Position numbers and translations under genes: made by a program | Source of the DNA: Saccostrea echinata | Taxonomy: Eukaryota | Length of the DNA stretch: 64,000 nucleotides | NCBI RefSeq assembly: GCF_033153115.1 | Contig: NW_026889761.1 | Location: forward strand, 9,238,001 to 9,302,000 | Direction: 5' to 3' | Notes under the pieces: generated by a model | Database searches by the model: none | Told to the model about the DNA's origin: nothing | What the model saw: the letters and a program-made list of their open reading frames with translations, nothing else | Shown: one piece after another, positions 1 through 61,260 of the stretch | Layout: each line of letters begins with the position of its first letter | Numbering within the stretch: position 1 is the stretch's first letter

Positions 1-192
1 AAATTGTTAATTAAACGACGGTTAATTAAACAAAGCAAACCTTCATCTGTGTATCTACTTCACTAATAAATAATGCAAAAATAAAGAAAATTTGTTTCTC
101 TAAACAGTATAAAAATCAACTTGAAATCTGATCTTGAACAGGCATTACAAAAGGTATTTTCGTGAAATATTCAGTTCTTGATAGAACCCCAC

Positions 193-6100: not shown

Positions 6101-8719
6101 ACAATATACAACAAGGGTATATTACATTAAAATGTTAATATTTGAAGTTACTTTGAATATTACCCTTTTTCATACAGATTATCATTCTTTCAGGATTAAC
6201 ATTGCATTTCATATAAAACTACAATAACCACTACAGAATGAAACTTTCTCTTTTTTTGAATACATGTATTCCATCACCCCTTTATGTATTCTGTATTCCT
6301 AAAAAAATTCATCCACATTTTGCAACAGTACTAAAAGCTGTAAACTAAACTGCCTATATTGGGACACTATCCTTGCTATACCCCTACCCCTTCCCTGTAT
6401 ACATCATTTAATTCAGCATGCTACAGACAGACAAACAAAGAACATGCTTACTTCTTCTGAGAGGGTAGAGAAAATAGGTGTCTGAAATTAAGACATGGTT
6501 ACATTAGTCCCAGACTCAAGCATGGAAAGAAATGATGAAAAAAGCAGTAAAAAAAGTCTTTAATATACATAATTTATTTTCTTCAAAATAATCTGAAAAT
6601 TTTTCACGATCACAATTTTTTTAATGAAACCTAATCAGCATTTCTAAGTGCAATACAGACATTGAATTTTCTTAAAAACTAATTAGTTGAAGATAAATGA
6701 AGAAACACCGATATCGTTTAAGATCAGTAGAGTTGGAGAAAAAGAAATCAATTAAGTGGCAATATTTTCTACATCTATATACTGAGTGCTAAATAATTGA
6801 TTATTTTCTAATTAAACCAGGAAGACATGCATCAAAGCAAACTGTGGAGGTCTGAATTCCAATACACGTAAAGTTTCTGTCATCATATAAAGAGGGGGGG
6901 GGGGATAACTAATTGGTACTACTTTATGCATATAAGAGGAAAACGAAAATCTCAGCTAAGAAATGTGCCTGTTTCCTGAATATCAATGTTTCCACATAGC
7001 TATTAACATGTCAAGTACATGTCATTCTCTTTTTATTTATTGAACGTAATTTATTACTTCAGTATCTTTTAAAACAGAGTATTGAAAGACCCATAATTCT
7101 ACAATGAAGCTTCTGAATTTCAGATCCAATCAAATACATGTATTATGTCTAAGTAAATTCTGATGGTAAATGGCATAAAAATACATATATGCATAATTTT
7201 TAATTTTATAATTTGATTCTTAAATTTGACAGACATTTCTCTAAAATTTTATAACTCCAAGCTATGAAAAAATATTCCAGGCAAATAGATTATAGGGGAC
7301 GATTCACTTTACCCGTCTCCAGAAAAATGCGCTAAAATATAGTGTTGCTGTAGGTGACTTCAATAAATATGAGATCGCGTGAGCGATCGAAAAAAGTAAA
7401 AAGTATGAGGTTTTAAGCCTTTTTGACCTCAAAATCGAATTCTATGGTTAAAAGTTTAGTTTAAAACTTTGTTTTTTAAATGAAGTTTTTAATCCCGTTC
7501 TCTGAAAAAAGTAATAAATATTGTTTATTCAGTGAAAAGGAGACAAAAAATAATTGTCAAAGAAGCGCGTGCGGCGCATACTTAGTGCCATTTCTTTCGT
7601 ACTTAGCCATTTTTCTTTCATGTAAACAAACCAACGAGATGTCGTTGAAACTGAATTAAGATCTTGCAAAAAATACAGATGCAAAGGAATTTCTTAATTA
7701 ATCTAAAAGAACAAGACACTAACCCTAATCTCTTATATGAAATGCGAGGGCTAAACCAAATCTCCCAGGTGGATGCTAGACTAACCCATGTGTGAGGACT
7801 ATCCCTAATCTCTCGTACGGATGCGAGACTAACTCTGATCAGTTGAAAACTTGTGCAAAACTAACCCTAATCAGTTGAGTGACGTAAATGTTATGTCATA
7901 GTGCAATGAGCGCGAGGATCTTGCAGATCTGGGGACCGGTAAAGTAAAGTCTACCCAATTATAGTAAAAAAACATTATGCAGTTATTACAGGAAACATTA
8001 TTATATTACTCTTGAAGCAAGATTTGACAAAAAATACTTTATAGGAATCTTACATGATTGATGGGTTGAAGGCGTCCTCTGGAAGCTGGTCTAGAGGTAT
8101 CAGATCCATCAAAGTGACGAGATCCTAAGCTGTTAATTACAATTTGTGCAAATGAAATTTTATAACAAAATGAATAATTACATATGTATTACTCTATAAT
8201 TTGTACTGGTACTAATACTAAAAAATCTGTCTTCTTGTAGCAATGCATGATAGCTCAGATTTGCACATTTATATATATATCAATTTTTAGTTCTAGAATT
8301 ATTGACTATTTGGCACTTATCAAAATTAGGAACTGGCCAACAACAGTATATTAAGGAACATGAAGGATTGGCAAAGCACCTACGGGGTATCTTTTGAGGT
8401 TCCCAATTTGGGAACCTTAAAAAGATATCCCTTAGATGCTTGAGCCACTAAAACAACACCCAAAGACAACAAAAATATTTAACAAAAACCTGAAAGAACT
8501 TGGTGGTCTGTTTTCTGGGGTTCTGGAGCTTGATGCACCAAACAAAGATCTTGTGGCATCCCTGGGTGTGCATGGTCTCTTTGTTACTACTGCCTGTAAG
8601 CCTGTTCTATTGCCGAGAGATTCTTTTGCTTCAGTGATAATTCTAGAACTAGTTGTTTCTCCTTGAGGAAGATAAAACGGCCGATCGGGCAACTTTTTCT
8701 TCTGGGTATTAGTATCCAT
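193..8719 (-). CDS. ARMC2: Armadillo repeat-containing protein 2 (ciliary/flagellar), multi-exon, 3' end runs off the window start
   Basis: Coding exons with GT-AG boundaries and compatible phases: 8719-8490, 8129-8054, 5866-5686, 5377-5218, 5077-5010, 4623-4525, 4068-3893, 3745-3643, 3447-3275, 2416-2366, 2108-1963, 1706-1607, 1120-980, 814-640, 315-193 (last donor tentative). Peptides match recalled ARMC2 motifs: RPCTPRDATRSLFGASSSRTPENRPPSSFS, NLLSACKLVFKISRNEKND, DVVVRVSFVLGNMTAKN, EDVLIKVIRVIANLSI, EELVLNTVATINNLSFY. Probable non-coding first exon with a donor at 9041. Confidence 0.92.
1374..1590. mobile_element. TA-flanked MITE (Tc1/mariner-type), family 1 copy 1
   Basis: TIR CTGTAGATTCCT...AGGAATCTACAG with TA on both sides. 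Homologous copies at 45682-45898 and 58839-59021. Confidence 0.85.
4738..4904. mobile_element. TA-flanked Tc1/pogo-like MITE
   Basis: Imperfect TIRs cagtttaacttctgtatctcgaac / gttcgagataaagaggtttgacta, TA flanks. Confidence 0.7.
7295..7956. mobile_element. Non-autonomous TIR DNA element with internal CTAACCCTAATC-type repeats
   Basis: Imperfect ~28-bp TIRs ggggacgattcactttacccgtctccaga / tctggggaccggtaaagtaaagtctaccc. About six ~30-bp units containing ctaaccctaatc at 7718-7875. Confidence 0.65.
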
Positions 8720-9139
8720 TCTCACCTGTGACTTATCTTTTTCAGTTTACTTTTACATTCCTGCTTAACTAAAAAGAGAAGATTAAACACATTTTAAAAA
8801 GTGCTGTACATAATTGTAAACGACTGTATAGTAACAAAAAAACAGTTTAACTAAAAAGTTTGCAAAAATAATAGCACATCAAGTCAAGAAGGTAAAATCA
8901 AGTTTTACAGAGTTTTTCATGGTTAGACAAGTACCTCTCATTGATCAGTTTGATATGTTTTACTCTGTCAGCGATTTTCCTTTGTCAAATAAATATATGA
9001 TTTACTTTTAAATATATTTTACTGTGTTTTATTCAACTTACTTTCCACAAATCTGCACACAGAATAAAATAAATTGATGAAAATTAACGCTAGTTTTCAT
9101 TGTTCGTGTTTTATCGGTTGGCTGGAGGAATGTACACAA

Positions 9140-11208: not shown

Positions 11209-14200
11209 CTAATGCAATTTATCAGTTTTTTCTCTTATGAATTTCACACTGTCTATATTTCTTATCATATCTGCAGCTTTTTCTGCAATCATAATTGTTG
11301 GAGCATTTGTATTTCCCGAGGGCACATTGCGCATGACGGAAGCATCCACCACTCGTAGACTCTGAATTCCCCTCACCCTGTAAAGTAAAATTTTCTTCTT
11401 TTTTCCTTCAAACTTGTGAAAACTTCTGAATAGTATCTGTTGTATCTTAGGATTTACAGAATGATGCATGTATTGTGAGAGACTGAATATCATCACGAAG
11501 AATAGCTAAAATCTTCAATACAAAAATTCTATCATTTGCCCAAAAATGATAAAAAGGTAGAATGATGAAAACACTGCAAAATGATGAAGTGTATAAATGT
11601 AACCAACTTAAGTTCATAATCTACAACTGCTGTGGGATCATCCTTGGCTCCCATTCGACAAGTGGACGTCGGATGGTAGACTGTGTACGTTAAATGTCTC
11701 AGTCTACAGATCCAGTACTCGTCTGATCCTGGAGAAAGATCGTCACACTGTGGGAGGTAAGTCTCAAGAGGATCCTGGGATGAGGCACCAATTGACTTGA
11801 AAGCTGTAGTGTCACCCAATTTTAAAACCTCCCGAACTCCTAGAAATATGCCACAAAAACCCCAAACTGCAATATTTGTGACGATGTACTTGTATGAACT
11901 AATGAAGTTGTACAAAAGGTAACTGAAACAAATTGTACCAGAACCTTTACATGACTTTTAAATGAATATTTACAATTTACTATTCAATATTTTTTTGGTA
12001 TTCAATAATTTCTTGATGTTAAATAATTCATTATGCTTTAGCAATACAAGGCAAAACGTGTAAGCTTCAATAACCACGAATAGGTCATCCAACACATAGT
12101 ATCTTTCACCTAATAAGTTGAATTTTTATGTACAGATCCAAACCCTACCATTTGTAACACATGTCAAATCAGATAGAGTATAGTAAACTTGATTTAAAAC
12201 ACAGAAGAAGACCTAAAATTTAAATACCTTTCAGGAACGTTTTGATATCATCCGGATGGTCGAGATAGTTTGGGTTAATGAGTGGCGGATCAAAAGGATC
12301 GTTACTCTGAAGGCGGATGGTTCCTCGACTCTTGGGATGAAGAAGAACCGGAAGCACACTAAATGTCCCAATATTTCTGTCTTTGTTTCTTTGAAATTCC
12401 CTCTGTTTTCCTTCTTTTAACTTCGTATTGACAAGCACAAGCCAAAAAAAAAAAAAAAAAAAAAAAAAAAATTAAAAAGGCAAATCAATAGACACCTGTA
12501 TGCAAAAAGCAAGTTTGTTTCCTGCATACATTAGCTTTATCAACTAATTTGATATCAAAGAGAAATACAACAACATGTACCTTCCGATCTATATTAAGCA
12601 TGTCTAAGAACAGGTCAGTGAGCTCAGGCTCATACATAAAGCTGAAGAAATGAAGCTCAATATGTGGCGGAAGCTTTTCATCCTTCGTGAGAAACGCCGT
12701 TCCCTCCGTATGAGGCCTGCTCATTATTCCTACAATAATATTTACTGCATACTGTGAAATAAAGCATCCAAATCATTTTTAACGCAAATAATGAAAAGGT
12801 ATATTAAAGTTATAGATTTAAATCGGGATACAAAAACAATGACTGAAACAAGTTTAATCACAACGGATCAGACCGACCTGAAAAGAAAAGGCCGAGTTTG
12901 GTCTATACTACTGAGTATCTCTCAATGACTCAAATGTATGCAATCACTGGGTGTAGAATGTATAGTGGCGATTAAAAATTGCACAGTCTTTATAATGAAA
13001 TGACATTAAAAATCCTAATAACTGAATCTTGTAACTGTTCAAAAGATTATACAAAGTTTGAAGAATGTTTAAGTAAAACATTGCACTACAAATTACGCAC
13101 TTTTTATAATATGAGGAAGATGGGTAAACGCTGCACGGTAATCTAGTGGTTCCTGTTTCAGTGCCGGCCAGTCACTGGCGATTTAGATAAAAGTTTATGT
13201 AAGAAACTCAATTTTTTGACATATTATAAGACAATATGTCAGAATGAAGTTGAAATTTCGAATCATTGTTTCAAAAGTCTTTGAATTTACCTGACTTAAA
13301 AGCCTTGTATTGTATCTGTGATATGGGTGACATGATCTTAGTTTTGGAGGCCGAACTCGTGGTATTGTCATGAAAGTCTAAGAACGTCTTCAAATGATCC
13401 TGTAAATTATCTCCTACCTGCAGATCGGCAACCACTGGGATCTGAATAGAAGTCTATCTTTGTCAAATAGGTCAAATTCAATTATATTCTACAGAGTAAA
13501 AATATTCAACAACTATAAAAGAAATTCGTAACCAGTTGTAAAACCTACATGATATAGTCTAAAAAATTCAATGTATGTAACTATTGTGCATAAATTGTAT
13601 AACTATAATGTACATGTATAAAGGTAATTGCATATTTGTGTCGTACCCCCATGGATTTGAGATGTTCCTTTGGTCCTATTCCAGACAACATCAGGATCTG
13701 GGGAGACTGCACCGAACCTGCTGAGAGAATCACCTCCTTGTTCGCCATTATGACGTACTTCTTGTTGTCTCTCACAAACGATACTCCGACTGCCTTCTTA
13801 TCTTTCATCAGGATCTTAGACACAAATTAAGGTAGTGTCTATTTTCATGTACTCTCGAATATCACTCCATTTAAATTTCTTAACGATGGTTAACAAAAAG
13901 AATTCATATTTTTGAATATCACACCATATAAATTTCGTGAGGATGGATAAGAAAAAATGATGATATATATGTACTGAGCCATGTTTGAATTTACCTTAGT
14001 AACATAAGAATTGATGGAGACATGGAGGTTCTGGCGTTCCATGGCGGGTCTCAGAAAGGCTTTTACGGTGCTCGAACGTTCCCCATTTCCGACATTTTCT
14101 TGAGAAGAACAATAACCTATTAAAATGTATCATGCATTAATCTATGTAAATCAATGGAATTGTAAAAAGCTTACAAAAAGAGTAGATGATACAAAGCTTG

Positions 14201-27610: not shown

Positions 27611-30199
27611 TATTAATCCAATATTTTTCCAAACAATTTTGATGCTTAATCATATGGAAATGATAATATATTTGTATTCTTAATGCTGGTTTTAAGAAAG
27701 ATTTTTCTGATATATTACCACTGGAAAATTGTCTCCATATAAAGGTCTCACATAGGAACCTAGGGTCATGATTTCAACGAATTTGAATCTACCCTACCCA
27801 AGAATACTTGATTGTTTGTGCGAGTAATTGGGTCCCCAGTATTTTGAAAACAAAGTTTGAAAGGCACATTTTCCTATGTATTAAAAAGGCTAAGATGTTT
27901 TTACTATTCAATAATAATTTCTCTTTGAAAGAAGGTGTGAATCTTTACTAAGAATGGGGCCAATTATATTAAGAAGTAATTAATCAAATTACAATTACTT
28001 TGTTGTTGTTTTCAATTTAATTACAATCAAATAATAGTGCTTAAAAAGGTAATTTAGTCACAAATACTAATAAGTAATTAATTAATTTCAAAGTACATTT
28101 TTAAACATTTTTTTAAAGAATGAATTAAAACATAAGACTCTAACAGCTCACCCCTGCTCAATACCCTGGATGCTTTGAGGCAAGTTTGGTCTTTTGGCTT
28201 TTCGAGAAAAATTTGAAAATGTAAAAAGCTTACAGACAGCAAAATGATAGATGGACGCAATGCACCTTTTGATCAGCAAAGCTTACACTAGCCGTTTTGT
28301 TCAGGTGACCTAAAAATTTACCAAAAACACCTAAAAAATTAATTTTTAACAAAAATTATTTTATAAGTTCATGGTAACCGAAATTTATGTTATCGTGGTC
28401 ACAAAGAACATATCAGCCAATTTTCAATAAGAAGTTTAATAAGATTTTTATATGAAATGTTGAGATAATATAGCCAATTAAAATTTTGCACTATTGCATT
28501 TTGTATTCTGTTCAGAAAAAAACGTATATACCTTTTTGTCTAAATTCAAATTATCCAAAAAAATATCTACATAGGCTGGATCAGTCAAAAGGCTGTAAAA
28601 ATGGAACTGAAGTGATGGTGGGAGATTTTTGTCCTCTGCCAAAAACGCCGTACCCTCCAGATGAGACTTGCTTAACATCCCTTTGTATAAAAAATATATG
28701 CGTTAGTTTTTTTTAATATAAAACATAAATTGTAAAATCACTCGACAAAGTTTATGAGAATTCTTAATTATCGTTTTCATTACATATTTTTCGTAATAAT
28801 TACATGTGCTTTTTGATATCTACGAAAACATAGTGCATAATAAAACAATTTTTAATCTTAAAAAGAATTAAATAAGAATTTTGTTTATCCTTTAAGAAAT
28901 TTACCTGACTTAAAAAACAAGTATTTTATCAAATTCATTGGTGACAAAAGTTTGGCCGCGGTTGCCACGCTCGAAGTATTCGAATGAAAATCTAAAAACG
29001 TCATAACATGATCCTGCAAATTCTCCCCTACTGGCAGATCTGCAACCAATGGGATCTGAATAGCAACGAAACAGAGAAAATATGTAACTATTAAGCAATG
29101 CATGATACGCGATACATTCAAACCCAGTTCATGAAATTGAAAACTACGATATATTTTATAAAGAAAAAGCATAGGATCTTTATGCCTTTATGAATTGATG
29201 AAAATACAGGACTTTCAATCCATTGCTATAAATACCTTGAATTTCATACCTTTTGTCATTGATATACGGGATATGAATGCTCAGAAATATCGAACAGGTA
29301 GCTTTAAGAGTTTTAGTGATGTCATGAAATGTGTAATTACTAGTATTAAGAAAATGGAGAAATATTTAGAAATTACTAAAGATTAAAAAAAATGTTGAAA
29401 GTCAGTTTGCGTAGTAAGTTTAGTGTATACGGGGGAAACAATCAGCATATGAAATAATATTAGACTAGCGATCCCAACAACGACCTTTCCTTCTCTTTCG
29501 CTAGTCTAATCATCACAAACATGCGTAACAGATTGTCCTCCTTTTGATGAAACAGATCCTAAACAAGAACTGTAAACAATTGCGTTGTAATTTTTGATGT
29601 ATTAATTGCGTCTTTTGTGTTTGATAAATAAATTTAGTACCAAAAAATCATTTCCGTTGGAATCGATGTTTATATACATTTATAAAACGTGATAAAAACA
29701 GCTTTGAGATTTAACAGAGCTTAACGGGGTTCAAGAAAATTAATACACTTGTATTTACATTTTTTACCGAGTACCCGGGTACTCGATTGGAAAAACGTCC
29801 GAGTAACCGATTATCAAAAATTGACCGATTTGACATCCCTAGTAAATAAGGAATATAAATATTATTCTATTTTCTGTATACAGGATAAAAAAATGGAGGG
29901 GTTAGTGGGGGTTCGGAGGGAGCCATATGCCTATATAGCGACAAATGAAAAAGCAATGAATTTACTTGTCACAAATTCCACTTTTTGTTAAATTTATTTA
30001 ATGTTTATTACCATTTGCGTACAATATCGACAATAACTGAATACAGTAACTGCGAAATTGGTTATGATTAACACAACAAAATGACGACACGCCCATTTTT
30101 CACAAAAACTGACATAAATTGGATGCTATAACTACATTTTTTGAATTGTGTCATAGCTCCATTTATTTATTTATTTACTAGATGAAATTTATACCACTA

Positions 30200-30328
30200 N
30201 NNNNNNNNNNNNNNNNNNNNNNNNNNNNNNNNNNNNNNNNNNNNNNNNNNNNNNNNNNNNNNNNNNNNNNNNNNNNNNNNNNNNNNNNNNNNNNNNNNNN
30301 NNNNNNNNNNNNNNNNNNNNNNNNNNNN
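30200..30328. other. Assembly gap (N run)
   Basis: 129 N. Confidence 1.
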
Positions 30329-30595
30329 ACAGGCTTATAGCAGGAAGAAATACTTTGTTCAAAATCCCGCATGAAGTAGAAGTACGTCTCCAACCCCCCA
30401 ACCCCCCCCCCCCCCCCAACCCCTGTAAAACTTAAATAACAATATCATTAATTGACGTTTATTGTGAAACCTGTTATACACAATGTACTATGTTATGGAT
30501 ATTTTACTTCAAATGCTCTTATTTCATTTCCGTCACGAACAAAAGCAGTGAATATGCACATTTAACTGAGAAATACATTTTTTTTGGTAAGAATT

Positions 30596-30662
30596 CACAG
30601 GTACTTGGGTCTTGGTTTATAAATATGTATGTACCTTATTGATATGTAAAAACTGTACCTTA

Positions 30663-30706
<44 letters not shown>

Positions 30707-30761
30707 TATCAATAAGGTACATGTATACATATTTATAATCCAAGACCTAAAAGTACCTGTG
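30596..30761. repeat. Inverted repeat (~58-bp arms) enclosing a poly-T run
   Basis: cacaggtacttgggtcttggtttataaatatgtatgtaccttattgatatgtaaaaa pairs with tttttacatatcaataaggtacatgtatacatatttataatccaagacctaaaagtacctgtg. Confidence 0.8.
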
Positions 30762-30794
30762 TAAAAATTAGCTTTTATTTAAGCCCTATGAATA

Positions 30795-30951
30795 CACTGG
30801 CGGATTTAGAGGGGGGCCAACCCCCCTCCCGTTTTGTGTCCAAAATATACATAAAATTTAATAAATCATTTTTTTTGGTGTGTCCGTGGGCCCCTACCCC
30901 AACCCCAACTGGTTGCCCCCCCCCTTTTCAAGATTCCTGGATCCGCCACTG
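30795..30951. mobile_element. Short MITE with CA(G/C)TGGCGGAT termini
   Basis: cactggcggatttag...ctggatccgccactg, flanked by gaata on both sides. Confidence 0.7.
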
Positions 30952-33360
30952 GAATAGGCCGAGTATTTGATACAAAAGACTGTATTCAGAGAAAAACTGA
31001 AATGTATTAATTAAAGCACAAAATTATACAACATAATTGTATTTGAATAATGCCTTATTCATTGATATTCTCTTTTCATGTAAGCAAGTTTATTGCGAAG
31101 TACAAATTTTACTTCGGATTCGTTGCCACGATGCTCTCAGTGAGGAATATATACAAATCTTACCGATGAATTTATTAGAAAAACCTACTACATATATGTA
31201 ATAATCTTTCGATATATAAATATATTCACAACTTACAGTGTTATCAATGATTTACCATTATTTCAATGACCATTCACACAAAACCCTTTTTTTTTTGTTT
31301 TTCTTTTTAACATCGGGCTCGATTCTATATGATGTTCTAGAAGCTTCCGTCAATATTACGATCGGTGAATGACGAAAATAATTTGCACATTTCCCTTTTT
31401 AATCGGTTATCACAACTTATTTCCTTTATATCATTTAAATCAAGTTTTGATTGAATAATTCAGTAATGACGTTTAATGAAATAAATTAACGATTGCTTGT
31501 TGTCAGTTTCATTAAAAATTGCCAGTAACTTTGATCCGCCAACCGGAAACGCCACCGTACTCACGTTTTTGCTATTTCATGGCTGTTTATAGAAAATAAA
31601 AGTAGACTTTTAATTTAATGTACGATACTTACAATGCAAGTGAAATCTAGATATAGTTTACGGACATCATCTTGTATCGTGTGTATTCTTAGAGGAGTAA
31701 GTAAGAACTCTGGGGCACCCGTTTCAGAGTTTATTTGCAAAATTTATTAATTTATAAGTATAGATTTTTTGAGAGCAAATAATGAAAGGCGATGTAAAGA
31801 TCTTTCTCTTTACACTTTACAAAACATTGGTACCATATTTATGTGACTGTGTGGTGTAGTTGTCAGCGAGGAGCTATTTAGACGGACATTTATTGAAGAA
31901 AGCGTTCGAATCTTGCTCTAATGTTTTGATTTTTTGGTTTTGTTTAACTTCATAATAAGTTGGCATAGGCATAAAAGATTTTTCACGGAAAAGAGAATAT
32001 ATATCTAATAATGAATCCATTTACAGTACATTATTAAAAATGCCGGATAAGAATTACAATAAATATTGCATAAGTGTATTCCCCTTTTTATCTAATTTTA
32101 TTAAGAGCATTTCGGGAAAAAACACCAAGATCAATATATATATTGGCTTACATTGGCTTTTGGTTCCTGTAATCCCCCAATTTCTTTTTGTGGAAATGTG
32201 TAAAGGCCTTACATTTGGAAATAACCAGTTTAATTCCACATACAGAGAAACAGATAATTTCTTTTTTCGTTTTATTGACGCCTTTCATTTTGGATTCAAA
32301 TTTAAGGACTACACAACGTATAAAAGTTATCATTGTACCTGAGTGTTGAAGCTCTTGGATTTGTATATCTTCAGATTTAATGAAATACGGGAGAACATCT
32401 TTATAGCTCCATCCTTTACATCCCTCTCTGGCCCAGCCATCGTAGTCATGGCGACTGCCGCGGACATATTGCATGAAGTTCAAATTACTTGTTCCCCCAA
32501 GTACTCTTCCGCTTGGCCAAGAAGATTGCTAAAAAATTAAAATAGAAATCATAATGCATTGTATTAAAGAAAACAACAAATCCAAGTGAATCCAATAATA
32601 AATAGATGCTTTTACAAGACAGTGATACCCGCACGTAAGAGTTTGCCTCTAAATGTATACTTGCTCCCTTGTACCTGGGCAAGAAAGCAGTTACAAGTTA
32701 TTCTGTAATCTACATAAAATATGTATACACATGTACATTTATCAGATTGAGCATAAAATAAACAGGTGAGCGTATATGATCGTGGGCCTCTTCTGTGAGG
32801 ATTTCAAATAACAAATTCATACCAGTCTAAAAGCAAAGATAGAAATGAGGTAAACTCTGATTTTAATAGCATAAAAGAGGGAGTACCTTCTTGGAAATTA
32901 ATTAAAATTACCTTGTGAATTAAAAAGTCGAATTTTCTCAATCACTTTTTAAAGAGAACTCTGATTAGAATCTACATATTACTTCGATCCAAACAAAAAG
33001 GAAAATCAGCAGTTATGGAAAGCCTTATATCTAAGTAATATAATGAAGTATGAAGATAACGAACAGTATTCAATCTCGAAAGTCCAATGAAACGATACAA
33101 ATTTGGATCTTTTATCTTATGTAAGATTTTGAAGTAACTCAAGTACATCATGCTCAATCTTCATAATGTCACCAGACTGTAATAAGGTAATTTTTCCACC
33201 TTATCCGTTAAGAAATCAAGAGAGCTCATTTCCACGTGATAATTAGTCAAACCGTTTTCAAGACTAATCGGGACCTTACGCTATCCGCGGATACTGCAGA
33301 ACACAGTGCAAAAGTGGAAGGTGATTACCGGTATTTTGACTGAATCGTGTCACAAATCAT

Positions 33361-33475
33361 TTAGCGAACTCGACAGGTTCTCTATTGTGGATTCAAATTT
33401 ATGGGGGACACTCCTACTTCGCACTAGTCCTCCCCAAATTTGTATCTACGATAGAGAACCCGATTCGTTCTCTAA
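33361..33475. repeat. Imperfect hairpin (~115 bp), MITE-like
   Basis: ttagcgaac...ggttctctattgtggattcaaattt...ggggga / tcctccccaaatttgtatctacgatagagaacc...gttctctaa. Confidence 0.6.
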
Positions 33476-34204
33476 GTAACTTTTTCACTTTGACATACCT
33501 AATATTGCCTCACATGCTTTCGTCGCACATAAAGTGTTCCTGAGTTGCTAATAAAGTGATTTGTACCTTGTTCCGCATTGCAAGACATGCTTTCTTTTGG
33601 GGTTTAGATTTAAACATTCAGTCTTGATTCGATAACTGAACACTTCCTGTAGCAATTGGGATACTTATGTTTTCGTTTTCAGTCTCGGAACCCCCAGCTT
33701 CTAAAATAAGCACCGATGACCCTGGATCTTCCGAAAGTCTGTTAGCGAGGACACATCCTGCTGATCCAGCGCCCACTAAAGAATATTGCAAATAACGGCA
33801 ATATATATAGGTTATTGAATTTCAAAAAGTGAAAGTACAGTTCTATTTTCACTAGCTGCAGAGCTGTAGGTTGCTGGCCTGTAAAAATCGGGATGATCGT
33901 CCATGCATCCCAATTTTTTTTCAGACCAGAGAGCTACAGATTTTCAGATTGTCATAAGCTTTTGCTATAAGCCTCATCATTCTGTTTTGAAGTAATTACT
34001 TACATATAATGTAATCATACGAAGAGTTGAGAGAAATAAGTTCTATTGTTGGAGTCTTTCGATTGGTGTAATACACAACTATAACACCGAGAAATAACGC
34101 TATTATGCCCCCCTTAAATCTCATCTTTTTCTAATTACGATTCGCTAGTTCACTGCAAAAAAATTCTGTCATTAAAAAATGAAGCATAATGTACCATAAC
34201 TTAA

Positions 34205-35040
34205 TGAAATATATGGAGGTAACGAACAGTATTCAAGCTAAAAAGTCCATTAAACATTACAAAATAGGTGCAGGGCAAACACTGACCTCCAAAACATCAG
34301 AGATGGGATCAGGTGCCATGGAGAAGTGGGCATCCCTTGCCGACCGGTCACACCCGCCGTGTGCTCCGTGTCATGATCAGGAAATAACGGAAAGATCCAT
34401 CGACAATTCAGTGTGTAAATAATGGCCTAACAATTAGTATGAAAAACGTCAGTCAGCATTTGACTCAATGGTAAATTGTATTTGCTGACAAGGTCATTGT
34501 ATCGACCATAGAACTTACGAAATGATGACTTTAAACGAGACTGCTGATATTCTTGTTTCATCAACTTGTTTGTCAATAATTTACCTCGTTTTAGAAAATG
34601 TACATACATGTACGTAGAGCATGCTCTTGCGTATCGAATCAACTGAGAGATATAAACCCCGTATGCAGATGATGAAGGTATATTGCTGCATAAGTAAGGG
34701 AAGTTGACGATTGAAAAGTTAAAGTCATCACGTTTATCATAAAGCGTGGTTGTTAGGCTACCATTAACGTCTTTTTCAAGTAAAATATCCAAATATGAAA
34801 CAGATGTGTCAGACTCTGTAGTATCTTATATCTCAAGTTCACCGGGATATATCGTATCGACATAAGAATGGAAATAACTATTGTTAATTGACAATACGTC
34901 GTCGATATATATTTCCTATTATATAAAATATATGGAGATAACGAACAGTATTGAAGCTCAAAACTTCATTAAACAATGCACATTTGGAGCAGAGCAAACA
35001 CGGACCTCTAAAACATCAGAGGTGGGATCAGGTGCCATTG
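34205..35040 (-). mobile_element. Penelope-like (Naiad-type) retroelement: RT C-terminus plus 3' UTR, with a partial tandem second 3' end
   Basis: ORF 34427-34792 (LYDKRDDFNFSIVNFPYLCSNIPSSSAYGVYISQLIRYARACS...[11 protein letters not shown]) is a PLE RT thumb ending with no C-terminal GIY-YIG. The 3' terminal segment 34205-34320 is repeated at 34925-35040 (pseudo-LTR-like). Confidence 0.85.
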
Positions 35041-38000
35041 AGAATTTCTATTCTTTGAAACTATTCGCATTTATGAGCAAGAGATAGCAAACAACATTTT
35101 ACCTACACTTTGGTAAATCTTTTACAATATGATTTTCTTTAGAACATTGTGAAGATTAACAAAGAAATCTTTGATACTAAAGTTATTTTATTCAATATTC
35201 TTAATAAATCATCGCATTAAATCTTACTTAATGGGATTGTTGTAATAAAGTGTTTTCTCGAATCATATAATTTTTAAGGTAATTCATTATTATATAGTTT
35301 TTCTCATACATTGACGAAAAAACTTGCATGTAAAAAGGTGCTCACACGATGATTTTTGTATATCTATTTGACCTTTCATCTACCCTTGGAACCATATATA
35401 TGGATGATGATGATGATGATGATGATTATCATTGCTTTATCTGATTAGTAACTTGAGTCTTTTACAAAATGCATCCTTACTAACCGTTGTTTGTAAAACA
35501 TGCAATTTTCTTCTTCTTTCGTTTTTGCACGGGGCTCCATCCGGAGAATCGTCGTACAATTTATTCATGTGTTAAAAGTTTGATATCATAGTAAAATTGC
35601 GTAATGTAGAGACTAGAAAGGACAATATCCTATATGTTGGTTTTCTCTCTTTGATATTCTTTTCTCGCCCGATTTTTGAATTGTCGTCTGATTGTACAAA
35701 ATTTTATGGTTACATCGTCTTTGTGTTGATTTGACTGCGTTTCTCACATTTAATTTTCCCTTATTTATTTATTGAACTTCTTGTGATATCTTAACTTACG
35801 TTTTTCTTAATTGTTTCTAAATATCTCAAAAACCATACAAAATCTTGAGCTTAAAGCTCATTAAAATATTTTTGTCGTTTAAGTTTATGAACTAACTATC
35901 AGTTTCTTTTTTTTATATTCCTTCTTTCCTACCGTACAATCTTAATCTGAGCTGGACTTTTCACTTTTCTTATGCAAAGTTCTAAATAGAAAATGTTCAA
36001 TGTTAAGAGGCTATAAATATATACAATCACAGAATACATTACCACATTATCTGACGGTAACTACATCGGCTCAGGATATCACCACATGATACTAGTTATT
36101 CCTAAGGTAACCATTCTATATTTTGACCTGAATGGGGTAAAAAGTAAACAAAGATTAAGTGTCGGGTTGGAAACATTCTACTGCTTGTGTCTATCATATA
36201 ATGTCTAATAAGTTACTGTCGGAAAAGAAAATAAAACAAAATGATAAATTTACCAATAGTTAAAAGAAAAAAACCCCGACACTTTAAAAAATATAATTAT
36301 GCAATTTACAGATTTATTACATACGGAGAAACATCCGTGCTTCATTTCAAGGTGGTCCTAATTTTTAACGTGTTCTTAAGAAAAGACAACATACGGTAAA
36401 TGAATTGACACCTTGAAGGCTAAAAATATATAAGTGAACCCCTCACATTGTCAAAATTAGTTTACTCAGCATCGCGTCTAGGTTTAATTAAATTTCACAA
36501 AATTCTAATATATTAGTAAAGATGTTGTTCATAAGATCAACAAAGAACTGTAGTCATACAATAGAAAATAACATATTTAAATGTTATTTCCCCCATTTCC
36601 CCCGTACTTTTTATTATGTCATACTATGTTATGGAAATGCCATTATAAAACATGTATGAAAATTATAGCTGATCTCTCAAAATTTCTTATATGAATATCT
36701 CGGAAACGAAAAGGAATTTCTGAATTGTTTTTGAACAGAAAATATTTAAAACTAGGAAATTCTCAATTGTTTCTAATTTGCTTTAGGTTTATGAAATTTT
36801 TTCAATGGTTTATCATTATTTTGAACTTTGACAGGCATTGCCAGACTCACGATATATGAATGAGTAACGAAAAAAAAAAAAGAACCATGGTTAAAGTAAG
36901 AAACAAACTTTTTCGGCCTCAAAGCAACTTTGTCTAACTTTTGTCGATCCCTGGATTATTTTGATATTGAAATAAATGATTAACTAAAATAAAGTTTTAT
37001 CATTTGGACACGATATTACTGAGAAAATTATCATTGTGTACTTTATTTAAGGATACCTGTCACATGACACAATTGACTACGTCATAGACTCTGTTAATAT
37101 AGGCTATAAAGTTAACGTTGATAAAATACCGGTAATCCAAAAACTAGTATTTGTGTCATTTCTGTACGTCTTGTTATGCGTCAACATTCAATATAAAAAT
37201 ATTTTAAAATTGTTATCGATCATGCCAATATGTAAAGATTGTGAAATAGATTGATCCACCTCTCTGTTTCTTTACGCTGCATGTCAAACAAGTTAGTGAC
37301 GTCTAATAACTAAAGTCTGTTAATGCAGTGAGATCAAATACGCAGCACTGTTAAGGCGTACTTTGAAGAAGTCAACGGAATGTGGAAGTGTACAAATAGA
37401 TACCTTTTTAAACTGAATTTATTTTCGTAAAGCTGTTTAATTAAGGAATGAATTTAATAGCTTCCCAAGTTATACTATATAACCTGGGTTAGCGCAGTTT
37501 ATGCTTTATAAACTGAGAAGCGGTTTTCATTTGTGGTTAAAAATTCCCATCAAAGACTCATTAATGGACCCATAAACACAAAGAATCAAAACTTCATACA
37601 GACACTGTGCGGAGCAATATTTGCAGAGCAGCTGACCATGAATTTCTGAATTTCACAATTTTCGTAGAGGACTCATTACTTGTTATAATCACGCCAACAG
37701 TTAGACTTGGTGCGTAAGGTCCAGGAGCAAGAAAAAACTTTTTTCATGATAACATTATTTTTGAAGGTTTTGGCCCCACCCCACAGGCCCGGTCCCAGGG
37801 AGGCAAAGACCATGAAATTATTCACAATTTATGTTTCCCTTTATCAAAAAAATGCTATATATAAAAATCGTTAAAACTGGTTTAGAGGCTCCGAGAAAAT
37901 GAAAATATCAAAGATTAATTTATGAAAGACGACTGACTAATGACCACAGACGGAAGTCACATGACGACGGACAAAAGCTGATAGCAATAGGTCACCTGAG

Positions 38001-38271
38001 TCATCTATAAACTACTTGCTTGAATATTTGCAAACGTCCTACTTAAGAATTTTTCATTGAGTATTTCTGATAATAATCAAACAATCCTGTAACCCAGAAA
38101 CACACGTCGCAACATTTATCCAATTCAAATACACGCAACCCAAATCATCATCATTACCCTAAATTCTGAAACAACGAAAAGATTAAAGATTGGGAAAAAG
38201 TAGTATAAATCACATTTCTCCAATTATAACCTATCAATACAAATAAAAAATTTCTAATTGTACAACACTAA

Positions 38272-41200
38272 TCAAAGTTTATCCGTTCTTTCTCTGATGA
38301 ATTTCACACTGTTTATATTTCTTATAATATCAGCAGCTTTTTCTGCAATCATTATGGTTGGAGCATTTGTATTTCCGGAGGGCACATTGCGCATGACGGA
38401 AGCATCGACGACTCGAAGGTTTTGGACTCCTCTCACTCTGCATGAAATAAAAATAAATTATTCTCTAATTTTTCAATTTAATGTTTAATATCGCTCTTTT
38501 CAAACCGTACGGCTTGATACAAAAATAAATTATTTTCTAATTTTTCATATTAACATTTAATATTGCTTTTTAAAAACCTTCTGTATTAGATGGATAAAAA
38601 GGTGTACATTGTATTTCCCATTTTCTGGTTGTAATTTGAAATTTTGCTACCAATATATTAATAATAATCAAATTGATGTAATACTGAAACACATCTGAAA
38701 TATAAAAATACCTTAGTTCAGGATCTACCACTGCTGTTTTATCATCTTTGGCTCCCATTCGACATGTGGATGTGGGATGATAGACTGTATAAGTGAAATG
38801 TCTTATTCTACAGATCCAGTACTCGTCTGAATCTGGTTTTATTTCGTCACATTGTGGGGTGTATGACTCCAATGGATCCTTTGACGAGGCACCAATTGAC
38901 TTAAACGCTGCAGTGTCACCAAGCCTTAGTATCTCTCGTACTCCTGGAAATATATATATATTCCGTGTATTTTGTTGGTAAATACATGAAACACTCCGAA
39001 ATAAATGGTACATGTATTATATCGGTTGATAAAGAATCTAATGACAAGTTTTTGAAAATCTAAAATTCAAGTGTATTTTAAGCAGCATCATTACCTGATA
39101 TGGTATTTTGTACACTAGTAGATTTATTTATAAGGTAGATATTGGTTTCTGTTCTTTTTTTAATAATATTGAACAGATTTTTTGACAGCTATAGAGTAAT
39201 TGGATGTTTGATTAATACACTGTTCCCTCTGAAGTTTTTTTTTTCAAATCAGAATAATATCCTAAATGCCATGCAAACAAAAAATGCTACTTAAGTCTAA
39301 AATTCTATCCATGTACCTTTTAAGAGTGTTTTGATATCATCTGGGTGGTCGAGGTAGTTTGGATCAATAATAGGCGGATCAAATGGATCATCACTTTGAA
39401 GGCGTATTGTCCCTCGACTCCTGGGATGAAGAAGAATTGGAAGAGCAAAAAATGTCCCTCTATTTCCCTCCAAGTTCCTTTTCAATTCCTTCTTTTTGCC
39501 GTCTCGTAGCTTTATATTTGCATAAAATAAATACTGTTTGTACATGTACATTTCTACAGTTTACTAAGGTTATGAATTGTTTAAGAATTCCAATCTTTAT
39601 AACCTTTGTCCTAGACTGATGGCCCGGACTTAATCCTTGAAGTCATGTTTTGAACAAACTTCAATGTTCCTTGCAAAGGGATGCATGCGTATCATTCAAG
39701 AATTGTGCTTTTATTGTCAACCATGTTTTGTAAAAAAGAAACGCAAAGGTGTTTCTTATATTTTCTATTTTAGACCCGTCCTTAGCCCTGGGTCATGATT
39801 TCAACAAAAATACCTCTAAACATATAGGGATGCTTAAATATTTGAATAATAATGTCCGTTTATAAATTTCCCAAAAGTACCCCCTTTAAAGCTTATTTAC
39901 AATCCTACCCTATCCCCAAGGACCATGACTAGATCAAATTTGCTAATTGTATCGATACTGTTCTTTACATAAGAATCTGTAAAAATATTTTTAAAAACGT
40001 TATTTTGTCCCCACGTAGCCACGGGGGTCATAATTTGAATAGATTTGACGCCACAATATTGAAGATGCTTGCATGAAACAAGAAGATGCTTGCATATGAG
40101 TAAGACGTATTATGCCCTGTTTTTTTTCTTCAGAAAACCTTTAAAAGATTTTTCAGTACACTCAACAAGGGAGTCGTATTATGACACAAACTCTGTCTTT
40201 TTTTTAACATGAATGATCAAGCAACAAAGGATGAAATGTTTCATGGCTAAATAGAAGGGTACAAATATTAGGATAAACATAAAACTTATAAAATTCCAAA
40301 TACACATTATGACTATAAGCAAACATTATTTTACTCAAGACGAAATATAAAAATCATTTATGGGGTAGCATGTAAACATTCATTTAAAATGTATAACTTA
40401 AATACGCATTTAAGATGTTTCTAATGATAAAAAGGGCAGTACAATGTGTCTATGATGGAGATATATTCCTATTATATGGATATAATAAATATGAAATATG
40501 TGAAGAAATTAAAATTACATCTTATTTATTCAATATAACTAATTAAATATCAAGTAATTGAAAAAAATGAACAATTAAAAATTCCCTCCAATTACTATGA
40601 AAAATGTAGTTAATTACATTCAAATACAACCACTTTTTTTTCAATTACCCTATCCCTGCTCATTACCTATGGATGCTTTGAGGCAAGTTTGGGTGGTAAG
40701 TTCTTTTGACTCTGGAGAGAAGTTGAACATGTAAAATTTTAACAGATTGCAGAAGGATAAATGGACGCAATACACATTTCGAACAGAAGAGCTTACACTA
40801 GCCTTTTGTTCAAGTGAGCTAAAACATTTACCAAGAACACATAAAAAATTAATTATTAACAAAAAAATTTTGTAAGTTCATGGAAATCAGAATTTGTGTT
40901 TTCATGGATACAAAGAACACACCAGCCAATTTTCAATCAGACGTTGGTTGCAATAAAAAGTTTTAATAAGATTTATAGAGAAATGTTGTGATATTATAAT
41001 CAATCATGATTTTGACTGGTAAATTTATCAGCTGTAAAGCACTGTTGAAAGTATTTACCTTTTTGTCTATATTCAAATTATCTAAAAACATATCCACTTG
41101 AGCCGGATCAGTCGCAAGGCTGAAGAAATGGAACTGAAGCGGTGGTGGGAGACTTTTGTCCTCGGCGAAAAATGCTGTACCCTCGAGATGAGTTTTGCTT

Positions 41201-41334
41201 AACATCCCTTTGTATAAAAATAAATATGTTGAATCTTTATAAGATATAAATTTTAAAAATTACTGGTCAGAGTATATAGAATTCTTAATTATTGTTTCCA
41301 TTACTCAATTTCACAAATAATTACGTGCCCCTGA

Positions 41335-41421
<87 letters not shown>

Positions 41422-54800: not shown

Positions 54801-56654
54801 CGCTTTCTTATCTTTAATCAGAACCTTGAAAGAAAGATTTTGTTTTAAACATTAGACAATGGAACTATTTTTGAAATGATTTATTGGACTTTTCGTTGCC
54901 AAAAAGATGAATTCTTTAAAGATATCCAGACGTCCATGGTAATGCCTAAATTAATATTCATCTACCTTAGTGACATGCGAATTCGAGGAGACATGCAGGT
55001 TCTGTCGCTTCATTACCGGTCGTAAAAATGCTTTGACGGAACTCCAACGCTCTCCATTTCTTGTTGTTTCTTGAGACGTACAATATCCTTTAGGATTAAA
55101 ATCATGTTAAAATTTTACGTTATACACATAATGTTAAAATAAAAATGAAAGCAGTATACATCTAAGAAATGTATAGAAAAGATGGCTAAATGAAGGACAC
55201 TTCCGATAAAAAAAGGCAATGAAGACTAATAATGTATGGCCTAAAAATTTCTTTTTTTTTTCAGATACATGTTTTTTTTATATGGTCAGCATTTGATTTC
55301 TCTTTCCATCATACCAGATGTTTTCAGTAAATGCAATAACACGACATGAATGGCTTACAGTCCTTTTTTCGTGTAGAAAAGAATTTGTAAAAAAAAAAAA
55401 AAAGGGCAGCACATTAAACTCTGATAATCGTAATACTCATAATTTTTATTTAAATAAATATCTAAGAAAAAACATTCCAATCTACCTATTTGCGATTTTC
55501 CATTACAGTCTGTGATAGGGTGACCTAACTCTTGCATTGCTCTGCTATACACATTATTGAGAGGAGTGGCACTTCCGTCACTGATTGTCAAATATCCCCC
55601 TTTTCCATGATACGCTGTTTAAAGATATGAAAAAAATATATCAAAGATTCTTCTACTTTAAAAGAATACGAAAGGAAACTATGTAAATGAAAGGAAAAAA
55701 TGCAAATAAAAATTAAAAATTATAATCTTCAAGTAAACATTAATCTTATTAAATAAAATACCTACTTGAACTTTGAAGCTCTGGAATTTGTATATCTTCA
55801 GATTTAATGAAATACGGAAGAACATCTTTATAGCTCCAACCCGTGCACCCCTCCTTGGCCCAGCCATGGTAGTCATGGCGACTGCCGCGAACATGTTGCA
55901 TAAAGTTCAAATTACTTGTACCCCCAAGTACTCTTCCTCTCGGCCATGCACACTTCTAAAAATATTAATTCAACATGCAGACTTTTTTTGTTACATTTAA
56001 AATGTTTAAAAAGTATTTTGGATTCAATTTTAAAGAAGGTGCATGCAATATTTTATGGAGTTTCAATGTACCTTATCCTTCATTGCCAAGCATGCCTTCT
56101 TCTGAGATACAGTTCGGAACTTCCAGTCTTGCTTTGATAGCTGGATACTTGAAGAGGCGATTGGGATACTTATGTTCATGTTTTCATCCTCGGAACCCCC
56201 AGCTTCTAGAATAAGAACCGATGATTCTGGATCTTCTGACAGTCTATTTGCAAGTACACACCCTGCTGTTCCAGCTCCCACTGAACAGATATTTATCAAA
56301 ATAAAAAAATAAATATTTATATAACTGTTCACAGTAAAACCAACTTGGTACACAAGAGCTTCCACTACGTACAATTAAGATTCCAGTACACCATGCAGTA
56401 AATTCACGTAAATAAAAATACTCAGCTTATTGGCATAAAATATTTCCAGTAAGATGGTTTCAATTACTACAATTCCAATGACTTCTTTTGATTGAAATGA
56501 AACAAAGCCATATTTAGGGCTTATAACACTTACATATGATGTAATCATACGAAGAGTTGAATGAAACTGGTTCCTCCGTTTGAGATTTTCGGTTTGTGAA
56601 GTATACAACCGAAACACCAACCACTAAGACAATTATGGCCCCTTTAGTCCCCAT
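51842..56654 (-). CDS. GMC oxidoreductase paralogue D, 11 coding exons, ~609 aa
   Basis: Exons 56654-56534, 56280-56072, 55955-55766, 55614-55486, 55087-54966, 54824-54657, 54396-54246, 53645-53497, 53206-53014, 52427-52196, 52007-51842 (1830 nt). Motifs: [52 protein letters not shown]. Confidence 0.93.
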
Positions 56655-59671: not shown

Positions 59672-61260
59672 TTCTCTAGAACCGCTAAACCAATTTCAAC
59701 CAATTTTGGCATATAGCATCTATGGGTAAAGGGGAACAAAAGTTGTCTATTTCATGGTCCCTGTCCCCACTGGGGCCTGAGGGGTGGGGCTAAAACCACC
59801 AAAATTGATTCAATCTTTCAAAATCTTTACTCCTGGACATCAAGCAGCCAAAGTGTTGGCATGATTGTAATAAGCATCGGGCCCTCTACCAAAATTTTGA
59901 AATTCATGGCCCCAGGATCAGGGGTTCTAGATCTGGTGTTAGGGCGGGACTCTATTGATTATAAAGTGAAAATGCATTCTTCCTCTCTGCTCCTGGGTAT
60001 TATTTAAACAAACTAAGTGCATGGTTATGATGCAAAAGGATACCTTTTCCAAAATTGTGAATTTCATGGCCCCTGTGTCAGGGGTTCTGGTGTTAGGGCG
60101 GAGCTCTATTGATAATATAGTGAAAATGCATTAATTCTTTGAAAATCTTATTCTCTGCTCCTGGGTATTATTTAAACAAACTAACTGCATGGTTATGATA
60201 AACCATAATGCCTTTTCCAAAATTGTGAAATTCATGGCCCAAGGGTTGGGGTTGGGGGGCTCTATTGGTTATATTGTGAAAAAGCATGATTAAATCCTTT
60301 GAAAATAATATTTTCTGTTCCTGGTTATAAATCAAAGAAACTAAGTGTATAGTTATGTTTAACAAGAGTGCTTCTTCCAGAATTGTGAATTTCATGGCCC
60401 CTAGGTCAGATGTTCTGGTGCTTTATAGATAATATAGTGAAAATGCACTATTTCTGTTAAAAAATCCTGTCTGTCCCTTTTTGTTAAGCAGGTAAACAAA
60501 GAGCATAGTTATGATGAACAATCGTGCTTTTTCCAATTTTTTTAAACTTGTGTTCCACGGTTTTGGTGTTTCTCGGGGGGTGGGGGTGGGGTGGGGGTGG
60601 GGGGTTATATTGCTACTATAGTGAAAATGTGTTGATTCTTTGAAAATCTTCAACGAAGTGCATAGTTATGATGATGAGGGTACCTCTACCAAATTTATGA
60701 ATTTCATGACCCTGGGACATGGGTTTTGGTGTTTGGGTAGGGCTGTGTTGAATCCATAGTGAAAATGCATTATTTCTTTGAAAATCTTCTTTGTTCCTTG
60801 GCATATCGAAGGCAAACGTTAAACAAGGATATTTTACCAGATTTTTGAACATCAGGACCATTTGGTCAAATGTTCTGGTCCTGGCCAGGGCTCTAATATA
60901 TAAATATTGCATTTAGTTGAGTGTAACATTGAAAATTTTCACCCCCAAAAAACCATTGTCAACCGAGGCGCAGCCTCAAATAAAATTGACCAAGAGAGGC
61001 CAATATGAGAGGTCACAATATGGGGTTAAAAGTAGTAAAAAACTAATAGTTTGTTATTAGTCTGCATGGTGATAGTGATAAATGGGTGATAGATTAGAAT
61101 TTAATTTATGAGTCTAGACTAATTATTCCAGTGATCCTGATCATCCTATTTCTCTTGCAACAAAGCTTCATCCATCAGTTTTTGTTTTTTTTTTGTATTC
61201 TATGGATCCTCTAAATTGTTGTATTATACCAAGGTGACCGTTAAGGCCCTTGGGCCTCTT
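59672..61260 (-). mobile_element. Second, inverted copy of the HINE/satellite element at 42570-44575 (3'-truncated)
   Basis: Ends ggtgaccgttaaggcccttgggcctctt, the reverse complement of 42573-42600. Shares unique segments and ~160-170-bp tandem units at 59860-60780. Confidence 0.85.

What the first reader, a model, noticed from the sequence alone, without database searches (positions are those of the whole stretch)
11209..56654. Tandem array of four (formerly five or more) secretory-type GMC flavo-oxidoreductases in birth-and-death evolution
Seen in sequence: four head-to-tail paralogues with the same intron positions and phases and near-identical exon sizes (121/209/190/129-132/122/168/151/149/193/226-232/166-169), plus a fifth relic. 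All have a hydrophobic N-terminus, a GxGxxG FAD motif and a His (x-H-P-T-S-T-C) / Asn (G-N-T-N) pair. Established: a His/Asn pair marks the choline dehydrogenase / insect glucose dehydrogenase / alcohol oxidase type, not His/His glucose oxidase. Insect GMC clusters serve ecdysteroid, defence and redox chemistry. Inference: this is a lineage-specific molluscan GMC expansion of unknown substrate, possibly an extracellular or ER alcohol/sterol-oxidising or H2O2/quinone-redox system for immunity, detoxification or shell-matrix tanning. It is the best candidate for an undescribed system in the window.
Basis: partly seen in the sequence, partly recalled or inferred. Interest (0 to 1): 0.7.

Follow-up and report, generated by a model that had tools for sequence, protein, structure and literature searches.

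The report
Oyster tandem GMC alcohol-oxidoreductase cluster
This oyster chromosome stretch holds three intact copies, one broken copy and one fragment of a flavin-enzyme gene from a family spread across molluscs; the enzymes are likely anchored in secretory or cell-surface membranes and likely oxidise small alcohols for defence or detoxification, and the gene copying itself is ordinary.

Summary
The array is real, but it has three intact genes, not four. G1, G3 and G4 (11 exons each) equal RefSeq Saccostrea echinata 'glucose dehydrogenase-like' proteins. G2 is a pseudogene (TGA in exon 2, exons 4-6 not found, 6-nt deletion), and a last-exon relic lies at 18.7-19.0 kb. Each intact gene has a close S. 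cucullata counterpart, dN/dS is 0.14-0.16, and spliced G3 contigs occur in two studies, so this is no assembly artefact.

The genes belong to an oyster branch of a GMC family found across lophotrochozoans and sister to arthropod GMCs. It expanded separately in Ostrea, mussels, scallops and clams, and this genome has a larger array elsewhere. They are not choline dehydrogenase. The published oyster shell-matrix GMC maps to a distant paralogue 14.5 Mb away that lacks the catalytic His, which weakens the shell-tanning idea.

A conserved N-terminal anchor, two conserved sequons and two co-varying Cys pairs point to a luminal or cell-surface enzyme. Divergence concentrates in the inferred substrate domain. 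Most likely these are membrane-anchored alcohol oxidases with differing pockets; substrate and electron acceptor are untested. Ordinary birth-and-death evolution in an uncharacterised branch.

The parts
11209..16204 (-). G1, intact GMC gene, 11 exons, 611 aa (= P0001, XP_061176435.1). Exons 16204-16084, 15914-15706, 15425-15236, 14630-14499, 14116-13995, 13814-13647, 13441-13291, 12729-12581, 12420-12228, 11839-11608, 11377-11209. His534 codon 11675-11673, Asn578 codon 11313-11311.
   Evidence: Spliced model open, all introns GT-AG; identical to P0001; accession; motif positions
18735..19049 (-). Relic of a fifth copy: 3' part of the last exon (frameshifted) plus 3' flank, closest to G1
   Evidence: 75.9% over 237 nt to G1; alignment score 259 to G1 against 132-136 to G2, G3 and G4
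21196..34124 (-). G2, pseudogene closest to G3. Exons 1-3 (34124-34004, 33775-33567, 32528-32339) and 7-11 (29055-28905, 28680-28532, 26988-26796, 21788-21563, 21361-21196). TGA at 33620-33618, exons 4-6 not found, 6-nt deletion in exon 10.
   Evidence: 87.6% aa to G3; dS 0.28 to G3
35555..36967 (-). Upstream DNA of G2, homologous to the upstream DNA of G3 (49029-50598): the G2/G3 duplication unit included the 5' flank
   Evidence: 68-69% identity over 413 and 1046 nt
38272..48272 (-). G3, intact GMC gene, 11 exons, 609 aa (= P0003, XP_061176434.1); spliced across exons 9-10-11 in two studies
   Evidence: Contigs in X1 and X3 laid on G2 carry G3's 6 extra nt and 14/19/20 differences; G2 and G3 differ by 15/19/20 there
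51842..56654 (-). G4, intact GMC gene, 11 exons, 609 aa (= P0002, XP_061176433.1)

Best explanation
The window holds three intact genes, one pseudogene and one relic of an oyster GMC flavoenzyme, made by tandem duplication; the enzymes are likely held by an N-terminal membrane anchor with the catalytic body in the secretory lumen or outside the cell, and likely oxidise small non-choline alcohols to aldehydes, probably passing electrons to oxygen to give hydrogen peroxide. Shown: gene structure, decay of G2 and the relic, purifying selection, GMC fold, a conserved His534/Asn578 pair, and 2-4-fold higher dN in residues 331-440. From established GMC chemistry (recalled): His534 acts as base on the alcohol and a hydride passes to non-covalently bound FAD. 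Inferred: topology (anchor, sequons, Cys pairs); different substrate preferences among copies; O2 rather than a quinone as acceptor; and a role in defence or detoxification in haemocytes and epithelia.
For: Models, phases and lesions. dN/dS 0.136-0.155 among intact copies at dS 0.8-1.0. dN 0.26-0.31 in residues 331-440 against 0.08-0.11 in 36-330 and 441-611. G1 and G4 each pair with one S. cucullata protein (100/100; 92.5% and 91.1% identical), and a third groups with G3 and G2 (100/100; 89.0% to G3); all three lie on a 437,941-base contig. AlphaFold model pLDDT 95.2; best Foldseek matches are bacterial alcohol oxidases 8rpg and 8rpf (TMq 0.78-0.80, 34% identity). In a 90-sequence alignment: His534 in 90 of 90, Asn578 in 88 of 90, hydrophobic N-terminus in 83 of 88 scorable, N-x-S/T at N33 in 64 of 89 (eight different middle residues) and at N340 in 68 of 90; C510/C523 both present in 89 and both absent in 1; C211/C220 both in 54, neither in 29, one only in 7. 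G1 and G3 read T-V-Y-H-P like choline oxidase T463-V464-Y465-H466 (the role of V464 in O2 reactivity is recalled). C. virginica LOC111104083, inside the same clade, is higher in circulating granulocytes than agranulocytes (log2FC 1.65, padj 4.8e-5, baseMean 108).
Against: No enzyme of this branch has been assayed in any paper I found. The closest solved structures are only 34% identical, so they fix neither substrate nor acceptor. Oxidase versus dehydrogenase cannot be read from sequence, and the Val before Y-H is present in only 53 of 90 relatives. No signal-peptide predictor was available, so anchor versus cleaved signal is open. The window proteins also carry basic residues just after the hydrophobic stretch (NRK), which would fit a cytosol-facing anchor. 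The granulocyte result is one gene in another genus at modest expression. The Saccostrea grouping has bootstrap 91, below the starred level. dN/dS in residues 331-440 is still 0.25, so positive selection is not shown.
Confidence: 0.55

Rival explanations
1. They are quinone- or acceptor-linked dehydrogenases of dietary, algal or steroid-like alcohols in the ER or gut (detoxification or ecdysone-oxidase-like chemistry) and make no peroxide.
For: Same anatomy as the best explanation. ESM Atlas neighbours at 0.98 include 'ecdysone oxidase-like' arthropod clusters. A GMC was among stress and detoxification genes under selection in C. sikamea (passages; clade unknown). Repeated expansion in filter feeders.
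Against: The closest folds are oxidases. No substrate data. Atlas names are automatic and all GMCs score alike.
Confidence: 0.22
2. They are true glucose dehydrogenases or oxidases like insect GLD/GOX, as the RefSeq name suggests, working on haemolymph glucose.
For: RefSeq names. Shared His/Asn pair with arthropod sequences. Bee GOX-1 and GLXr-2 are haemocyte-expressed (section 9 of PMC1891103). A 'glucose dehydrogenase' marks M. gigas vesicular haemocytes (G16900, clade not assignable).
Against: Mollusc and arthropod sequences fall in separate groups (FastTree support 92 and 81; 9 of the 10 arthropod-side rows I looked up lie in the main group, and the 6 of those 10 with a name are all arthropods). 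Identity to the one named GLD-type arthropod hit is 45% (P0151), while insect GLD orthologues share 63-71%. The putative pocket differs strongly between copies.
Confidence: 0.12
3. They are mantle enzymes supplying redox chemistry for shell-matrix tanning or chalky-layer formation.
For: [quoted passage not shown] C. nippona CNI_019539, a mantle DEG (logFC 2.1-2.2), has the same NR label as the clade member XP_011433592.2, though another paralogue carries a like label (P0037).
Against: Both published probe primers for the shell GMC CNI_019180 match one other locus, G000:C12 about 23.80 Mb, with 5 and 3 mismatches and exact peptide matches. The next best sites in 815 kb of held DNA have 7 mismatches. 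That paralogue is 32-59% identical to G1 by exon and has Asn in place of His534. CNI_019539 is not listed as found in shell.
Confidence: 0.09
4. The array is an assembly artefact (uncollapsed haplotypes) or an unexpressed relic.
For: Oyster genomes are highly heterozygous (own knowledge). G2 and G3 are close (dS 0.28).
Against: Intact copies are 78-79% identical with dS near 1. Counterparts exist in S. cucullata. Spliced G3 contigs occur in two studies.
Confidence: 0.02

Closest known systems
Insect GMC cluster and GLD/GOX/GLXr subfamily (Iida et al. 2007, PMC1891103)
   Same: GMC fold, His/Asn pair, tandem duplication with shared intron positions, 40-46% identity to arthropod representatives.
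   Different: Separate group in the tree. The insect cluster is ancient and conserved inside flotillin-2 (abstract), whereas this array is genus-level, decaying and one of several in the genome.
Bacterial GMC alcohol oxidases 8RPG/8RPF, chloramphenicol oxidoreductase 8B7S, fungal aryl-alcohol oxidase 5OC1, choline oxidase 2JBV
   Same: Best sequence and fold matches (E 4e-89 to 6e-57 by sequence; TMq 0.65-0.80); same position of the catalytic His.
   Different: Only 28-34% identical. The oyster enzymes add an N-terminal hydrophobic helix, sequons, Cys pairs and a two-helix stretch at residues 399-428.
Choline dehydrogenase (BetA/CHDH)
   Same: His/Asn pair; best NCBIfam hits are the choline dehydrogenase models.
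   Different: Scores 475-481 against cut-off 605 and 399-409 against cut-off 732. The Glu two residues after the LQDH His is Lys or Met here. The genome has true CHDH genes elsewhere; the one scanned scores 833 and 755.
Oyster shell-matrix GMC (CNI_019180; C. gigas gi|405962101; PMC10543319, PMC5854119)
   Same: GMC domains, signal peptide or transmembrane N-terminus, matching exon boundaries where seen.
   Different: Maps by primers to a paralogue 14.5 Mb away that lacks His534 and the GN of GNTN.

Membership tests
GMC oxidoreductase superfamily | PF00732 and PF05199 above curated cut-off | tested here: met
   175-179 bits (cut-off 23) and 132-145 bits (cut-off 24.6) in 3 of 3 intact proteins
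GMC oxidoreductase superfamily | GMC fold with N-terminal GxGxxG | tested here: met
   Model pLDDT 95.2; all 41 listed Foldseek rows are GMC enzymes
GMC oxidoreductase superfamily | Catalytic His plus His/Asn near the C-terminus | tested here: met
   His534 aligns to choline oxidase His466; His534 in 90 of 90 and Asn578 in 88 of 90
GMC oxidoreductase superfamily | FAD binding and CH-OH oxidation | not testable with these tools
   Needs protein assay
Choline dehydrogenase (BetA/CHDH) | Score above NF002550 / TIGR01810 cut-offs | tested here: not met
   475-481 < 605 and 399-409 < 732
Choline dehydrogenase (BetA/CHDH) | Glu after the LQDH motif (binds trimethylammonium; role recalled) | tested here: not met
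   Glu in the two oyster CHDH copies aligned, Lys or Met in the window proteins
Insect glucose dehydrogenase GLD/GOX/GLXr | Falls within the GLD/GOX/GLXr clade | tested here: inconclusive
   Groups with lophotrochozoan sequences apart from arthropod ones, but support is moderate and no biochemically proven GLD was in the tree
Insect glucose dehydrogenase GLD/GOX/GLXr | Oxidises beta-D-glucose | not testable with these tools
   Needs assay
Covalent-FAD GMC (choline oxidase type) | His in the flavin-attachment loop (position recalled) | tested here: not met
   Position 126 is L, I, M, Y or A in 90 of 90; no His
Oyster shell-matrix GMC | Orthology to CNI_019180 | tested here: not met
   Primer pair maps to G000:C12 about 23.80 Mb, not to the window
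Secretory-pathway (luminal or ecto) enzyme | N-terminal hydrophobic segment, conserved sequons, paired cysteines | tested here: met
   83 of 88; 64 of 89 and 68 of 90; 89 of 90. Orientation and cleavage are not directly tested.

The most novel reading that the evidence does not exclude
This oyster GMC branch is a set of membrane-anchored ecto-oxidases that give granulocytes and epithelia a substrate-gated hydrogen-peroxide and aldehyde source independent of NADPH oxidase. Each duplicate is tuned to a different host, algal or microbial alcohol, and molluscan lineages keep re-expanding the set as a chemical-defence repertoire.
Probability: 0.15. Interest if true: 0.55.

Novelty: new member of a known kind. 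Interest (0 to 1): 0.24.

Why it matters
As a genomic pattern it matters little: tandem arrays of this family recur in oysters, mussels, scallops and clams. The open point is biochemical. A 2023 paper states that GMC function in molluscs is largely unknown, and database names such as 'glucose dehydrogenase-like' are transfers by similarity. Three intact, soluble-after-truncation candidates with diverged pockets are a convenient first test set. If they are peroxide-making ecto-enzymes, they would add an oxidant source to bivalve immunity and could be useful alcohol biocatalysts.

Tried and rejected
Expression: no holder on record as RNA was listed (four runs, RNA guessed, contigs only). For G1, one 198-nt contig covers exon 3 with no difference (X1) and one contig joins exons 3 and 4 with 22 differences (X4). 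Contigs laid on G2 were rejected as G2 evidence because they match G3.

The 129-N run equals the size of exon 4, but its flanks are not splice sites, so I drew nothing from it. Gene conversion was considered for exon 6 (92.6% nt between G1 and G3). Synonymous differences there are low in all three pairs (10/50, 9/46, 13/48), so conversion is not shown. A peroxisomal or ER-retention reading of the C-terminal DKL was rejected because the ending varies across the clade. No PDB match for exon 7. ARMC2 identity and synteny in other bivalves could not be tested.

Literature: nine searches found no biochemical study of a molluscan GMC of this branch. The library lacks most subscription journals, and searches do not cover supplements. 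The S. echinata spawning paper's supplement had no hit for the three accessions. Figure supplements of PMC10543319 (Fig. S12) and the cut part of file 5 of PMC12064177 were not seen and may bear on the shell and haemocyte assignments. Earlier scan notes held nothing relevant.
Full report
Observation. Six-frame motif scans found four HPTSTC and four GNTN motifs on the minus strand. Exon-by-exon alignment and splicing gave three open 11-exon genes with GT-AG introns and identical phases: G1 (16204-11209, 611 aa), G3 (48272-38272, 609 aa) and G4 (56654-51842, 609 aa). They are 78-79% identical to each other. They match letter for letter P0001, P0003 and P0002, RefSeq proteins of Saccostrea echinata named 'glucose dehydrogenase [FAD, quinone]-like'.

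The fourth copy, G2 (34124-21196), is a pseudogene. It has TGA at codon 93, no detectable exons 4-6 and a 6-nt deletion five codons before the catalytic His. A 129-base N run in the gap cannot hold the 419 missing bases. A fifth relic at 18735-19049 keeps the end of the last exon and 3' flank and is closest to G1. G2 and G3 also share upstream DNA, so whole genes were duplicated. No more copies lie in the flanks fetched.

Is it real and active? dN/dS among intact copies is 0.136-0.155 at dS 0.81-1.03; G2 versus G3 is 0.23 at dS 0.28. In a 35-row tree G1 and G4 each pair with one S. cucullata protein at 100/100, and a third groups with G3 and G2 at 100/100. Uncollapsed haplotypes are therefore excluded for the three intact genes. 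Contigs in runs X1 and X3 (two studies; RNA is a guess) join exons 9, 10 and 11 at CT..AC joints. They carry the six bases that G2 lacks, and their differences from G2 (14, 19, 20) match those of G3 (15, 19, 20), so they are spliced G3 sequence.

Where it sits. The 120 best hits of G1 are, where named, molluscs and Lingula, apart from one fused beetle protein. An 80-row tree (79 of the 126 proteins then held, chosen for length and taxon spread, plus G2) shows a 40-row oyster clade at SH-aLRT 100, with separate expansions in mussels, scallops, venerid clams and abalone. Inside it the window's subclade (97/98) holds the Saccostrea copies (91/95), eight Ostrea edulis clusters from one 98-Mb sequence and two Crassostrea/Magallana lineages. 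A 158-row FastTree, with 130 of the 150 representatives kept by length, places this family beside, not within, the arthropod GMCs (support 92 and 81). It includes Lottia, Owenia and Lineus. In this genome exon 10 gives 17 matches of 24 candidates: 4 here, 7 on C45, 3 on C18 and one each on C16, C22 and C23. The C45 and C18 copies break at the same exon boundaries. The shared exon plan is therefore a family trait, and this is not the largest array.

Anatomy and mechanism. Pfam gives both GMC domains. The model (pLDDT 95.2) matches bacterial alcohol oxidases best, then fatty acid photodecarboxylase, aryl-alcohol oxidase and choline oxidase. His534 aligns with choline oxidase His466. The alignment of 90 near-full-length relatives (of the 120 listed; fragments, fusions and near-duplicates dropped) has His534 in 90, Asn578 in 88 and no His at the position recalled as the flavin-attachment site. 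FAD is therefore probably non-covalent. The proteins miss both choline dehydrogenase cut-offs and lack the Glu seen in the oyster's own CHDH.

A hydrophobic N-terminal helix (83 of 88), sequons at N33 (64 of 89) and N340 (68 of 90) and two co-varying Cys pairs argue for a luminal or extracellular catalytic body. Amino-acid change concentrates between the two Pfam domains (residues 331-440; dN 0.26-0.31 against 0.08-0.11; exon 8 only 52-58% identical). I infer this region to be the substrate-binding domain. The most likely mechanism is His-assisted hydride transfer from an alcohol to FAD, reoxidised by O2, with pockets that differ between copies. Substrate, acceptor and tissue role are inferred, not shown.

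Physiology. Passages of PMC5854119 and PMC10543319 report a GMC in oyster shell and call its function in molluscs largely unknown. The supplement gives probe primers for that gene. Both map to one locus at about C12:23.80 Mb with exact peptide matches (5 and 3 nucleotide mismatches; next best 7). That paralogue is distant and has Asn in place of His534, so the shell protein is not from this array. Against this, a C. nippona mantle DEG shares its NR label with a clade member, which is ambiguous. In PMC13070813 (passages and supplement rows) the clade member LOC111104083 is 3-fold higher in circulating granulocytes. GMC markers of M. gigas vesicular haemocytes (PMC12064177, supplement row and passages) and of gonad VCT cells (PMC12722230, passages) could not be assigned to a clade. 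PMC12021676 and PMC6503834 (passages) list GMCs among selection outliers. For insects I saw the abstract and section 9 of PMC1891103.

Verdict. A real, already annotated, genus-level tandem array in birth-and-death evolution, within a widespread but biochemically unstudied animal GMC branch. It is a new member of a known kind. Interest is low to modest and rests on the unknown substrate.

Noticed in passing
L001:3928-7198, L002:2004-5409, L003:3926-7331 (G000:C54 twice, C30): The oyster's choline dehydrogenase is fused behind HAD-type phosphatase domains, with the whole GMC part in one exon, in three loci (two 98% identical). The fusion recurs in bivalves, gastropods and one Schistosoma record (16 of 18 hits carry HAD and GMC domains). 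A phosphocholine-phosphatase plus choline-dehydrogenase route to betaine is a testable guess. One search listing showed no title on it; I read none of those papers.
   Followed up: partly
L033:6328-9406 and L008:6046-7957 (G000:C12 about 23.79-23.80 Mb): Likely orthologue of the published chalky-layer shell GMC. It has Asn where His534 lies and DYTN for GNTN, so the shell-matrix GMC may be a pseudoenzyme or use altered chemistry.
   Followed up: partly
L004:2749-7960 (C13) and L005:4236-9144 (C23): Two more GMC genes lack the catalytic His/Asn pair; the C23 gene has an open frame running about 390 codons past the GMC domain, rich in Ser, Thr and Lys.
   Followed up: partly
G000:C45:3.149-3.309 Mb and C18:3.229-3.300 Mb (L010-L026): Larger sister arrays of the oyster GMC clade: seven and three exon-10 matches, some copies partial or frameshifted, one inverted.
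   Followed up: partly
window 119-8746, minus strand: Multi-exon gene downstream of the array with helical, Leu-rich exons. It fits my recall of ARMC2, but no call confirmed the name.
   Followed up: partly
window 34430-34825 and 50835-51233, minus strand: Fragments resembling the C-terminal part of a non-LTR retroelement reverse transcriptase (recalled; no Pfam hit for the first), with related repeats at 14900-15130.
   Followed up: no
window 25352-26177, 43357-44352, 59801-60536, 17708-18439: Degenerate tandem repeats (periods roughly 145-160 nt; about 430 nt in the last) that inflate introns of G2 and G3 and the intergenic DNA.
   Followed up: no
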